A DNA stretch of 64,000 nucleotides from Leucoraja ocellata. Lineage: Eukaryota. Numbering within the stretch: the stretch's first letter is position 1; each line of letters begins with the position of its first letter. The position numbers and the translations under genes are program-made. The DNA is taken from positions 1,054,001-1,118,000 of the forward strand of contig JAWMAR010000391.1 in the NCBI GenBank assembly GCA_036785375.1. Reading direction: 5' to 3'. The notes under the pieces are model-generated. The model had not been told where the DNA came from. It saw nothing but the letters and a program-made list of their open reading frames with translations, and ran no database searches. Positions 2,694-12,790 of the stretch are shown one piece after another.

Positions 2694-3180
2694 AATCTAA
2701 GACAGCACAACTTAATGCCTCAATTCCGTAGCTTCCATGACTTTCTCAATAAAAATGGATGAGAAATATTAATTTAATATCTCCCCATCACTTGTGGTTC
2801 TAAATAAAGACCATGCTGATCTTCAAGGGAACCTAATATTTCTGTGACCACCCTTTTACTAGTCAGACATCACACAGCCAAAACTGCCTGTCGCGAAGAT
2901 TACAGTCAACAGGCATGTCCCGACCTAAAACTTCACCTATCCATGTTTTCCACATTTTCCATTGAATTCCTCCAGCATTCTGTATCTTTCTTCAGACACT
3001 TGTCCTATTTCAATCCCCAGCACTAGTCTTTGCAGTCTCTTTTCCTTTCACTACATATAGTATTTCTGTGTAACTTCTGATTAATTTATCTTTTTGTGTG
3101 TTTGCCTGAGTCCATGAGCCTGCGATGATGCTGCAAGCAAGTGGTTCATTGTACTCATACCTCACCATGCTTGTGCAGAT

Positions 3181-3690
3181 GACATCCTGCCATCGGGAAG
3201 AAGGTGTAGAAGTCTAAACATTGGTACATCCTGGTTCAGGAATAGCAACTTCCCAACAACCATCAGGCTATTGAACACTACGAGCTCCAACTAAACTCAA
3301 AATTATGAACTGCCTGGACCGTCAGTTTTCAAGAGAGTTAGATTTAGCTCTTAGGGTTAAATGAATCAAGGGATAGGGGGGGGGGGGGGGGGGAGCAGGA
3401 ATGGGGTACTGATTTTAGGTGATCAGCCAGCATCATATTGAATGGCAGTGCTGGCTCGAATGGGTGAATGTCCTACTCCTGCACCTATTTTCTATGTTTC
3501 TATTGCATTAGGGACTTTGGGCTGAGTTTTATTTTTGCATTATATTGTTTTTTTTAATATACTGATTTTTTTTTTGGTTTGCTTGTTATATTGAGTACTG
3601 TGTGTATTTACAAACCTGTTATTATGCTGCTGAAGCAAGTAAGAATTTTATTGTTCCATTTCGGGACAGATAATAATAAAACATTCTTGG
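3181..3690 (+). mobile_element. Rex/Babar-like LINE 3' end with a nested CR1 3' end (about 3320-3503)
   Basis: Degenerate translation LPSGRRCRSL...FRNSNFPTTIRLLN. The nested segment ends cctactcctgcacctattttctatgtttcta, the CR1/HER1 tail seen elsewhere in the window. Confidence 0.7.
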
Positions 3691-7788: not shown

Positions 7789-8091
7789 GCATTTGGTGCT
7801 TCACTGAGCTATTTTTCATGAGGGAACCCCATGACATCACTGCTCTGCGGAAAGACCCTGTAGTTCTTGACTGCCAAGCTCATGGAGAACTTCCAATTAC
7901 CATTGTGTGGCTAAAAAATGGACAGAGGTTGGCGGATACTGAGCGGACATACATTTTATCAAACGGATCGCTTTATATCACTGAGGTTGAACATCGCAGA
8001 GGGGACCGTTCGGATGAAGGCTACTATGAATGTTTAGCTCAGAATAAGTATGGAGCCATTCTGAGTCAGAAATCCCACCTCACCGTGGCCA
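7789..8091 (+). CDS. PRTG: Protogenin exon 2 (Ig domain 1)
   Basis: Acceptor tttttcag| and donor A|gtaagt; 303 nt. [33 protein letters not shown]...[21 protein letters not shown] matches vertebrate protogenin as I recall it. Confidence 0.97.
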
Positions 8092-11222: not shown

Positions 11223-12416
11223 TGCCAACTTGTACTTTTGTGAAATCATTTATTGTTACTCGCTTAACAGTGCATTTTAAAGATATATAATGATGATTTA
11301 ATTTGTATAATTGGCATCGTAAGGACCAACTTGTTATTTTTTTCAAATCATTTTGATTGACCTTACATTTAACTATTTTTTATATGATGAGATTTCTGCA
11401 GTTTCTTTTTGATTAACTGAAGTTAATAGCATCAGATATATCACATTAGTTTAATATTGCAGCTCTGGAGGTATTGTTGATTTGCGCCATTTACCAAGAC
11501 AGTTTTGCTACTCGTATGAACGTTTTCACAACCTGTGTGTATGGACATGGATGTGTTTCTAGAAAATAACTCTTTGTGAGAGTACTCGTGCAACAGTTTT
11601 CTCCCCTCTTTGCTTGTGAATGTTGAATTGACTCTTGTCATTGACGAACTAAGGCAGTTAGTTGCTGTTCATTGCAATGTAGTCATCACTGAATTCTTTA
11701 GCATATACTATTGTTAGTGGTAGTAGTTTTGGTTTGGGGAAATGCTTAATGTTCAAACTGATGGTGATAAACCTGTCTGGCTTTTTACAGGCAGCTTTGC
11801 CTCTTCTGTCTAGAAGCCAATGAAATTTGCAAGTACTTGTGAAATGCAGAGTGGGCAAAGTGGTTAATGTGGTGAGGCTGTATCTCCTAGCCATATTGCC
11901 ACTGTTTCTTGTTGTTCACTGTCCTGCCAAACGCTCCTAGTCTGTCTAAGTGTTTAAATTGCAGTCCTTTATTGTAAGGCAACTTGCTGAAGTGGATAGT
12001 AGTTCTGTTGCTGCAATTGTCTTGCACTCTTGTACCCCAAAGGGCTGGAGAAAATAATTTGTTCTGTCCACTTTGTCTGTTCTGATAATCCTCAGCAAAT
12101 GCTTTTGGTTCTGTTTAGGGAATCTAAGATTTAAATAAATGAACAGTTTGATCTTTTGATTATATGCAGGATAATCAAACTGCTAATTAAAAAGGAACAG
12201 GGAAAAGGTGTATGAGGAACTGATTTAAAATTTTAAGAGATGCAATGTTTGAAGTAAAACCATATCTTGGAGGAATAAAATTAATATGACATGGAAAATG
12301 ATAGGCATTTAGATAGAATATGTTGGGACTTAAAATGTATTTCTTCCCCTCACCCAAAATGTATTTGCTAAATAGCCCAATCTCTTAATTACACACAAAG
12401 GAAACATGGGTGCTTT

Positions 12417-12790
12417 GATGAACTGGTCATAGACTGCCGCAAGCAGGGCTGGAAGGCAAAGTGTATGCCCATCGAGGTTTTGCAGGGCAATTGCTCTGCA
12501 AAGCCTTGAGTGCACTGGGCATAAACGGAGTGGCGAGGAGAAAGGCCATCAAGAACACCGCAGAGGCAGCGGAGATGGCCTCGAGATGGCTCTGGATCAG
12601 GAGAGGAGGTCCATGGGGAGGAACGAATGCCACCTGAACACAAGTCATGGTCTGATCAACCACGGCTGGGTCGCCTGGGTGAGGGTGTCTGATGTTGAAA
12701 GACCCGAAACACCCAATGACCCCAGGTTACATCACTGATGATGTGTTCAGGAGTATCTATTGATGTATTTGTATCAACTGCATTATACCG
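12417..12790 (+). mobile_element. 5'-truncated HERO-like (R2-group, restriction-like endonuclease) non-LTR retrotransposon: ORF C-terminus plus 3' UTR
   Basis: Hand translation across one frameshift: DELVIDCRKQGWKAKCMPIEV / FAGQLLCKALSALGINGVARRKAIKNTAEAAEMASRWLWIRRGGPWGGTNAT* (TGA at 12635-12637). This matches the GW...PxEVGCRGF...EAAExASRWLW C-terminus I recall for HERO elements. Confidence 0.8.
12674..12748 (+). ncRNA. Putative hammerhead ribozyme with reversed strand order and a kink-turn
   Basis: GUC at 12687-12689, GAAA at 12706-12709 and CUGAUGA at 12735-12741. Helix III 12683-88/12709-14 (6 bp), helix I 12690-95/12729-34 (6 bp), imperfect helix II 12701-05/12743-47. Activity untested. 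Confidence 0.6.

What the first reader, a model, noticed from the sequence alone, without database searches (positions are those of the whole stretch)
12683..12748. Hammerhead ribozyme core with its three strands in reversed (non-circularly-permuted) order in a HERO-like retrotransposon 3' UTR
Seen: 46 nt after the ORF stop lie strand C = GGGUG-U-C-UGAUGU (12683-12695), strand B = GACCC-GAA-ACACCC (12701-12714) and strand A = ACAUCA-CUGAUGA-U-GUGUU (12729-12747). Helix III (12683-88 with 12709-14) is 6 perfect bp, including A15.1-U16.1. Helix I (12690-95 with 12729-34) is 6 perfect bp in exact register around C17 and C3. Helix II (12743-47 with 12701-05) is G-C, U.C, G-C, U-A, U.G, with one extra nucleotide after A9. 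Established: hammerhead types I, II and III are the circular permutations A-B-C, B-C-A and C-A-B. Here the order is C-B-A, which forces a pseudoknotted fold. The 5-nt linker UGAAA joins the distal ends of helices I and II, which lie side by side in the active hammerhead fold. Inference: a hammerhead topology that type I-III descriptors and nested covariance models would miss, cleaving after C12689 (GUC). I know of no description of it but could not check the literature.
Basis: partly seen in the sequence, partly recalled or inferred. Interest (0 to 1): 0.92.

Follow-up and report, generated by a model that had tools for sequence, protein, structure and literature searches.

The report
Rewired hammerhead ribozyme in jumping genes
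The tail of a jumping-gene family holds a conserved RNA fold that carries the catalytic letters of a hammerhead ribozyme in an unusual wiring; it is predicted to cut itself and may let the element copy itself from a circular RNA.

Summary
Helices I and III, the core and the S-G-C order are confirmed. That order is published (type SGC; Eckert 2023, PMC10085705).

The strand after CUGANGA closes a separate helix (12633-42/12742-51). So the core is opened between A9 and G10.1, which the SGC paper assumed unbreakable, with two helices inserted there.

The motif lies behind the ORF in 69 of 88 protein-selected relatives (30-77% identity). The 33 strongest covarying column pairs all belong to this structure. 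Position 17 is never G (0 of 58).

In this genome, copies that reach the 5' UTR run on into their own 3' tail through an in-register junction, often past the cut site. This best fits a ribozyme-made circular RNA template, as in retrozymes.

Cleavage and circles are untested; one RNA-seq run showed no ends at the cut site. HERO membership was not checked against Repbase. Ten literature searches found no description.

The parts
12416..12777 (+). 5'-truncated copy of an RLE-type (HERO-like) non-LTR retrotransposon; positions 3262-3635 of a 3635-nt unit
   Evidence: 89% to a natural full unit; 1838 first-look candidates in the 3.44-Gb genome; shared 3' end in aligned copies
12416..12637 (+). broken C-terminal remnant of the element ORF (RLE end); stop codon 12635-37
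12633..12642 (+). P5 5' strand (closing helix, overlaps the stop codon); pairs with 12742-51
   Evidence: 10 perfect bp; 10 of 10 pairs with two-sided changes
12643..12667 (+). hairpin P0, directly between P5 and helix II with no unpaired base (one A.C mismatch at 12647/12663 in this copy)
   Evidence: 89.8% paired; 9 of 9 pairs covary
12668..12672 (+). helix II 10.x strand (G10.1 = 12668); the true partner of 12701-05
   Evidence: G at 12668 in 40 of 42 non-redundant rows
12674..12679 (+). P4 5' strand; P4 bridges the distal ends of helices I and II, like the SGC 'interaction' helix
   Evidence: 96% paired; double compensatory change seen in another organism's contigs
12683..12689 (+). helix III 16.x strand with U16.1 (12688) and C17 (12689); predicted cut between 12689 and 12690, 88 nt before the element end
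   Evidence: position 17: U 13, A 13, C 12, G 0 of 38 non-redundant cores
12690..12695 (+). helix I 1.x strand, then a 5-nt linker (12696-12700) to helix II
   Evidence: 98.4% paired in non-seed rows although the model does not encode this helix
12701..12714 (+). block G: helix II 11.x strand (12701-05), G12-A13-A14 (12706-08), helix III 15.x strand (12709-14)
   Evidence: G12 40/42, A13 42/42, A14 42/42, A15.1 40/42
12721..12726 (+). P4 3' strand; the linker before it carries a conserved G12718-A12719
12729..12741 (+). helix I 2.x strand (12729-34) and C3-U4-G5-A6-N7-G8-A9 (12735-41)
   Evidence: six core positions 41-42 of 42; N7 takes all four bases
12742..12751 (+).
12753..12777 (+). small terminal hairpin (12753-66) and 3' end of the element; in full-length copies elsewhere this end runs directly into the 5' UTR
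   Evidence: hairpin seen by eye in other families, not counted

Best explanation
The 3' UTR of this retrotransposon family holds a conserved, covarying seven-strand-pair RNA fold with a complete hammerhead core opened between A9 and G10.1, which is predicted to self-cleave after C12689 and likely serves to cut unit-length RNA out of partial tandem copies so that it can close into a circular template. SHOWN: the order 5'-P5-P0-II(10.x)-P4-III-UH-I-II(11.x)-GAAA-III-P4-I-CUGANGA-P5-3'; its conservation behind the ORF; and genomic copies of the form [3' part][full unit] with an in-register tail-to-5'UTR junction. INFERRED, structure: helix II stacks on the A9.G12 side of the core as usual, while P5 and P0 stack on each other and cross over at the A9/G10.1 step like a perfect four-way junction. 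INFERRED, cycle: a copy with two whole ribozymes is read through; both cut; the 3635-nt monomer (5'-OH, 2',3'-cyclic phosphate) is ligated by the re-formed ribozyme or by RtcB; the element protein primes reverse transcription internally at the tail end, crosses the sealed cut site 88 nt later, copies the unit, and stalls soon into a second pass because it meets its own cDNA. This regenerates partial tandems. Odds by step: topology about 0.95; catalytically active in vitro about 0.8; circular intermediate about 0.45-0.5.
For: STRUCTURE. Loci were picked by protein only. A core+I+III descriptor hits 55 of 73 loci with at least 200 nt after the ORF match, 3 of 365 shuffles and 0 of 73 reverse strands. 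The covariance model hits 63 of 90 loci, once each, always on the ORF strand, and nothing better than 14 bits in 80 phage loci that hold the core letters. On alignment A3, 93.8% of cells pair (slid controls 36-39%) and 40 of 42 pairs change on both sides. The top 33 APC-corrected covarying column pairs are all in this structure, including helices I and II, which the model does not encode. CATALYSIS. C3, U4, G5, A6, G8, A9, G10.1, C11.1, G12, A13, A14, A15.1 and U16.1 are kept in at least 40 of 42 rows. Position 17 was left free in the scan and is never G (0 of 58); N7 varies freely. The parent SGC order cleaves in vitro (PMC10085705). CIRCLE. 73 exact matches to the tail|5'UTR junction, control 0. 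0 of 14 independent events found by 5' UTR alone start at the 5' UTR start. The junction is in register in 28 of 29 readable loci. 17 of 57 diverged loci show the N-terminal ORF downstream of the motif. 17 of 34 events run past the cut site and 15 of 34 carry a whole second ribozyme. Upstream repeats stop within the ribozyme in 13 of 30 events, against 0 of 26 ordinary copies (p = 7e-5), and are shorter even beyond it (median -227 vs -722, p = 0.003). Minor alleles in the 5' repeat match the same element's 3' end in 13 of 22 cases, 4.5 expected. Flanks after the 3' end resemble the start of the 5' UTR (8 of 45 share 3 or more bases, p about 1e-6).
Against: No cleavage assay was run, and I found no hammerhead shown active with helices inserted at A9/G10.1; the SGC authors assumed that block cannot be interrupted. 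In the one raw RNA run (109 reads, related organism, poly(A)), reads span the site; the only nearby start pile is 3 nt upstream (5 of 22), and 17 of 67 reads carry G12A. No genomic copy starts at +1 to +16 or ends at the cut (0 of 6 candidates), and 21 indels around the site are not clearly concentrated on it. So nothing directly marks the cut in vivo. L409's two ends differ at two non-CpG diagnostic sites, which a single monomeric circle does not explain. Four junction-bearing copies end inside the 5' UTR, so they are not shown to be second passes. The flank microhomology may be target-site preference. The nested minimum-energy fold of the window copy pairs 12668-72 elsewhere and competes with helices II, III and P4. 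No circular RNA was observed.
Confidence: 0.6

Rival explanations
1. Active ribozyme, linear RNA (R2- or Penelope-like). The upstream copy in a partial tandem cuts to define the 5' end of a read-through transcript, the downstream copy is held inactive (ribosome at the stop codon or bound element protein), and partial tandems are renewed by template jumping of the reverse transcriptase between RNAs or across the nick.
For: Same structural evidence. Upstream repeats stop preferentially at +17 to +75, inside the 3' cleavage product (17 of 34 events). The motif begins within about 20 nt of the stop codon in most families, so a terminating ribosome would open P5. L409's discordant ends fit two templates. 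Template jumping by R2-type enzymes is recalled, not checked here.
Against: No stops at +1 to +16, and half the events run past the cut. No event of 14 starts at the 5' UTR start, and the junction lacks the indels expected of jumps. Without renewal, a linear scheme can only shorten the 5' repeat each generation.
Confidence: 0.25
2. A hammerhead-derived fold that no longer cleaves and acts as the protein-binding or translation element of the 3' UTR. Tandems arise independently of it.
For: No in vivo mark of cleavage. Essentially all copies keep the tail beyond the cut (939 exact matches across the site). A high-depth G12A variant occurs in another organism's contigs (598 of 1022 depth).
Against: Every catalytic position is kept, G is excluded at 17, and N7 is free across proteins 33-77% identical. 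G12 is kept in 40 of 42 rows although it sits in a CpG that decays in single copies.
Confidence: 0.12
3. One reading: a plain type-SGC hammerhead with helix II formed by 12743-47.
For: Published SGC rows do have helix II 0-1 nt after CUGAUGA (supplement passage). C11.1 could pair with the G at A9+2 in 18 of 22 rows.
Against: 49.5-58% paired, none of its pairs among the top 45 covarying pairs, mean pair probability 0.00 in 62 rows. The strand is used by P5.
Confidence: 0.03

Closest known systems
Type-SGC hammerhead ribozyme (HRIMA-1 and variants; Eckert et al. 2023, PMC10085705)
   Same: Order S-G-C; two core pseudoknots; short linker from helix I to helix II; a fourth helix joining the other sides of helices I and II (here P4); short connection from that helix to helix III; same conserved core.
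   Different: In SGC the 10.x strand follows CUGANGA directly and the ends open between the interaction helix and helix III. Here that link is closed and the RNA opens between A9 and G10.1, through two added helices (P5, P0). SGC was reported from environmental sequence only, with none in genomes of known organisms; this one sits in an autonomous retrotransposon of an animal genome.
Non-LTR retrozymes of animals (Cervera and de la Pena 2020, PMC7229834)
   Same: Tandem genomic copies, one hammerhead per unit, and a proposed cycle of double cleavage, RtcB ligation, circular RNA and tandem cDNA.
   Different: Retrozymes are non-autonomous 170-400-nt units with type I hammerheads. This is a 3.6-kb protein-coding element with a fixed 3' end and mostly 5'-truncated copies; circles are not shown here.
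Penelope-like elements with hammerheads in pseudo-LTRs (as described in PMC8557442)
   Same: Full-length copy preceded by a partial copy of its own 3' part; hammerhead near the 3' end, hypothesised to process tandem precursors.
   Different: Different protein class (GIY-YIG endonuclease versus RLE; best solved relatives here are R2 proteins); Penelope hammerheads are minimal type I forms.
R2 and other RLE elements with 5' HDV-like ribozymes (PMC3774820, seen as search listing only)
   Same: Same protein superfamily; a self-cleaving RNA frees the element from a read-through transcript.
   Different: There the ribozyme is HDV-like, lies at the 5' end and cuts at the element boundary. Here it is hammerhead-like, lies in the 3' UTR and would cut 88 nt inside the element.

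Membership tests
Hammerhead ribozyme | Conserved core CUGANGA, GAAA, UH | tested here: met
   At least 40 of 42 rows at all 13 core positions; position 17 never G in 58; N7 free
Hammerhead ribozyme | Helices I, II, III in register around the core, with covariation | tested here: met
   I 95.9%, II 93-96%, III 95.9% paired; 15 of 17 pairs change on both sides
Hammerhead ribozyme | Interaction between helices I and II | tested here: met
   Direct linker plus covarying helix P4 adjoining both distal ends; its 3D role is inferred from PMC10085705
Hammerhead ribozyme | Site-specific self-cleavage 3' of H17 | not testable with these tools
   No assay; RNA reads and genomic ends gave no mark of the cut
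Hammerhead types I, II, III (Rfam models) | Circularly permuted order, nested three-way junction | tested here: not met
   Order is S-G-C; no Rfam hammerhead match in the window region or in 10 diverged loci
Type-SGC hammerhead | Block order S, G, C | tested here: met
Type-SGC hammerhead | Block C intact: helix II strand within 0-2 nt after CUGANGA | tested here: not met
   Downstream strand 43-52% paired, upstream strand 91-94%; downstream strand forms P5
RLE-type non-LTR retrotransposon | Single ORF: N-terminal zinc finger, RT, CCHC knuckle, PD-(D/E) endonuclease | tested here: met
   RVT_1 in relatives; C-x-C-x12-H-x5-C motif; C-x2-C-x7-H-x4-C and invariant R-P-D...E...K; best PDB hits are R2 proteins. 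Pieced from several copies; no intact ORF in 18 long copies of this genome
HERO clade | RT phylogeny with named HERO elements | not testable with these tools
   No Repbase sequences available. Relatives in fish, lancelet and molluscs, RLE and non-specific insertion fit the clade as described in PMC9004415 and PMC4640811
Retrozyme-type circular RNA cycle | Two ribozymes one unit apart in genomic copies | tested here: met
   15 of 34 junction events extend past the ribozyme start; both ends intact in L402/L406, L408, L413, L414
Retrozyme-type circular RNA cycle | Circular RNA detected | not testable with these tools
   No RNA run of this species listed as holder; reads across the site cannot tell circle from uncleaved RNA

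The most novel reading that the evidence does not exclude
A whole clade of autonomous, R2-related LINE-type retrotransposons replicates through a ribozyme-made circular RNA. A fourth opening of the non-circularly permuted hammerhead (split at A9/G10.1 by a four-way-junction-like insert) excises and closes the unit, reverse transcription starts internally and rolls, and the element's apparent 5' and 3' ends are not the ends of its RNA.
Probability: 0.45. Interest if true: 0.95.

Novelty: new variant of a known kind. Interest (0 to 1): 0.87.

Why it matters
It adds a hammerhead topology outside the six-permutation scheme, which assumes CUGANGA and helix II cannot be separated. Descriptor and Rfam searches therefore miss it, even at about a thousand copies in a vertebrate genome. 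It moves non-circularly permuted ribozymes from anonymous environmental RNAs into a protein-coding mobile element with a testable job.

If the circle model holds, it is a non-LTR element that breaks the rule that target-primed reverse transcription starts at the 3' end of a linear RNA. It would link R2-like elements to retrozymes and Penelope elements, give a clean system for the open question of what hammerheads do in partial tandem retroelements, and bear on RLE-based gene insertion tools, where template design matters. The key test is one short in vitro transcription.

Tried and rejected

Chance match: rejected.

Known Rfam family: no relevant match.

Partial tandems as independent insertions in front of an older copy: rejected, because repeat lengths differ from ordinary copies and alleles are shared within elements.

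Assembly artefact: the junction is present in megabase contigs of this genome with unrelated flanks; for the metagenome contigs a collapsed repeat cannot be excluded.

Marks of cleavage in DNA: none of 6 candidates ends at the cut; 7 insertions and 14 deletions near the site are scattered; inconclusive.

RNA evidence: no RNA holder listed for this species; the raw run of a relative gave no end at the site.

Viral contigs: no relative of the protein; 80 loci with the core letters gave no model hit above 14 bits.

Target-site duplications: rare in this family (one clear case among 18 ordinary copies), so only L414 and perhaps L418 suggest one event around a whole partial tandem.

Rows dropped: L116 and L125 from the descriptor scan (they end within the ORF); the L156/L410 group from the stop and allele counts (local duplication); L252, L259, L260 and L268 from the first-pass list (rearranged or duplicate; one search shows none of the 30 starts inside the ribozyme). 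Earlier findings of the scan held nothing on this stretch.

Full report
OBSERVATION. The window shows a stop codon at 12635-37, helix III (12683-88/12709-14), C17 at 12689, helix I (12690-95/12729-34), GAAA at 12706-09 and CUGAUGA at 12735-41. This is the only hit of a core+I+III descriptor on either strand; 1 of 200 random 64-kb strands gives a hit. An upstream strand, 12668-72, gives five perfect pairs at -7.1.

CONTEXT. The motif lies in a 5'-truncated copy (12416-12777) of a repeat with 1838 first-look candidates in a 3.44-Gb genome; 939 places match a 20-mer across the predicted cut exactly. The unit is 3635 nt. Its single ORF has an N-terminal zinc-finger-like motif, an RT, a CCHC knuckle and a PD-(D/E) endonuclease; the best solved relatives are R2 proteins. 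Named protein relatives come from fish, lancelet and molluscs. That fits the HERO clade as described in PMC9004415 and PMC4640811 (passages), but I could not compare with named HERO sequences.

PRIOR ART FOR THE ORDER. Eckert et al. 2023 (PMC10085705; parts 1-6 of 8 read, covering the main text; supplement passages) define blocks S, G and C and show that type SGC cleaves in vitro at 0.007-0.19 per minute. They assume the blocks cannot be interrupted, describe a fourth helix joining helices I and II, and found no SGC in genomes of known organisms.

WHAT THE RELATIVES SHOW. I fetched 90 loci by protein similarity alone (80 metagenome contigs; 10 from prokaryotic assemblies, probably eukaryotic contamination) and analysed 88. 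A descriptor scoring only the core and helices I and III hit 55 of 73 loci with at least 200 nt after the ORF match, 3 of 365 shuffles and 0 of 73 reverse strands. Position 17 was unconstrained and was never G in 58 hits; among 38 non-redundant cores it is U 13, A 13, C 12, and N7 is U 20, C 10, A 5, G 3.

THE CONSERVED STRUCTURE. On a sequence-only alignment of the window and 21 of those 58 hits (hand-picked for typical length and trimmed at P5), my structure pairs in 91.8% of cells with 39 of 42 pairs changed on both sides. A covariance model of the nested helices only (P5, P0, P4, III) then hit 63 of 90 loci, once each and on the ORF strand. The top 33 APC-corrected covarying pairs are all in my structure. 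The whole alignment gives 93.8% paired against 36-39% for slid controls; P5, P0, P4 and III are fitted to the model there. Descriptor and model together find the motif in 69 of 88 loci. Of the other 19, ten have 160 nt or less after the ORF match and nine have 308 or more, so some lineages may lack it.

ANATOMY. 5'-P5(12633-42)-P0(12643-67)-II 10.x(12668-72)-P4(12674-79)-III(12683-88)-C17-I(12690-95)-linker-II 11.x(12701-05)-GAA-III(12709-14)-P4(12721-26)-I(12729-34)-CUGAUGA-P5(12742-51)-3'. Read as a circle, this is the SGC family; P4 sits where the SGC interaction helix sits. But the chain opens between A9 and G10.1. In most families there is no unpaired base at A9|P5, P5|P0 or P0|G10.1. I infer a four-way-junction-like crossover, with helix II stacked on the core and P5 on P0. 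A one-base insertion at this step occurs in published SGC rows; that such a base is tolerated in a viroid hammerhead is recalled, not checked.

THE PUZZLE AND THE TANDEMS. A cut 88 nt before the 3' end should remove the tail, yet copies keep it. Exact 20-mer counts are 682 in the tail, 939 across the cut and 766 in the ORF end, and none of 30 tail-selected copies starts inside the ribozyme. Copies that reach the 5' UTR continue into their own 3' tail: 73 exact junction matches, in register in 28 of 29 readable loci (many of them duplicates), and none of 14 independent events found by the 5' UTR alone starts at the 5' UTR start. Three copies start 19-45 nt inside it. The same arrangement appears in 17 of 57 diverged loci with enough sequence.

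LENGTHS OF THE UPSTREAM REPEATS. Ninety loci collapse to 34 events after merging duplicates and dropping one local duplication. Four start at +55 to +75 relative to the cut, 13 at +17 to +47, none at +1 to +16, and 17 run past the cut; 15 carry a whole second ribozyme. Stops inside the ribozyme are 13 of 30 here against 0 of 26 in ordinary copies (p = 7e-5). Repeats that pass the cut are still shorter than ordinary copies (median -227 vs -722; p = 0.003). Minor alleles in the 5' repeat match the same element's 3' end in 13 of 22 cases against 4.5 expected, over six elements; L409 is discordant at two diagnostic sites.

MECHANISM. The template is continuous across both the tail|5'UTR junction and the cut site, and copying becomes fragile on the second pass. 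A circular RNA explains this most simply: double cleavage of a partial tandem, ligation, internal priming, one turn, then a stall on the enzyme's own cDNA. This is the cycle proposed for retrozymes (PMC7229834, passages) and resembles Penelope partial tandems (PMC8557442, passages). A linear RNA with template jumping remains a serious rival. P5 overlaps or abuts the stop codon in most families, so translation could gate folding; this is speculation.

EVIDENCE AGAINST. Nothing here shows cleavage. In one poly(A) run of a related organism, 109 reads span the site, the nearest start pile is 3 nt upstream, and 17 of 67 reads carry G12A; these reads probably come from decayed copies inside host transcripts. 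No copy ends at the cut and nearby indels are scattered. The nested minimum-energy fold competes with the pseudoknots in the window copy, though P5 and P0 form in 49 and 52 of 62 rows. Four junction copies end inside the 5' UTR.

NOVELTY. Searches found no paper on a hammerhead in HERO elements, on a hammerhead split at A9/G10.1, or on circular RNA in RLE elements; 'type-SGC' returns only the 2023 paper. I also saw passages of PMC3088659 (core insertions elsewhere, no added stem), PMC13725137 (it notes variants 'containing additional helices' and cites Weinberg 2015, Eckert 2023 and Forgia 2023), PMC10162972 and PMC7650587. Weinberg 2015 was not held, and the original HERO papers, Repbase reports and most subscription journals were not searchable, so prior description cannot be excluded.

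VERDICT. A real, deeply conserved RNA structure; a new variant of the hammerhead beyond type SGC; catalysis likely (about 0.8) but untested; circular intermediate plausible (about 0.45-0.5). Interest 0.87.

Noticed in passing
L185, L193, L200, L210, L212, L267-L269; window 12416: Recurrent internal deletions join unit positions about 549-686 to about 3034-3263, leaving short non-coding forms that keep the ribozyme and, in five cases, the junction. The window copy starts at unit 3262, in the same hot spot. These may be non-autonomous, retrozyme-like derivatives.
   Followed up: partly
L402 968-1090 (5' UTR); L050, L077, L091, L102 downstream of the motif: The 5' UTR holds about four tandem short hairpins with purine-rich loops, recognisable across diverged families. 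Possibly a translation or protein-binding element.
   Followed up: partly
window 7794-8090 +: Exon encoding an Ig domain of a DCC/neogenin-type receptor. The element copy lies 4.3 kb downstream on the same strand, probably in an intron, so an intact ribozyme would be in the sense pre-mRNA; the intron was not mapped.
   Followed up: no
L002 (G000:C603): Shares the window copy and both flanks at about 95% identity: a segmental duplicate or second haplotype.
   Followed up: no
L166 group (29 loci on C428, C478, C1051, C1278, C1626, C2420, C2617 and others): One junction-bearing insertion has been amplified many times with its flank (a few of the 29 loci are the same place fetched twice).
   Followed up: no
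L278, L281; G000:C328, C489: Two copies carry a 3-nt duplication ending at the predicted cut site and two a 7-nt duplication spanning it. Possible ligation or template-jump scars, but not above the scatter of other indels.
   Followed up: partly
runs X11, X24 laid on L004 1800: A sister family in other organisms often carries G12 to A (598 of 1022 contig depth; 17 of 67 reads), which should inactivate a hammerhead.
   Followed up: no
L117, L120, L124: The element with its motif occurs in contigs filed under bacterial genome bins, L124 in a 539-kb contig. Probably eukaryotic contamination; not checked.
   Followed up: no
L410 330-835 and 4170-4665: About 186 nt of flank plus the last 308 nt of the element are duplicated inside a full-length copy. 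Unexplained.
   Followed up: partly
window 12668-12722: The nested minimum-energy fold pairs the helix II 10.x strand with 12718-22 instead, a candidate off-state in this family; conservation not tested.
   Followed up: no
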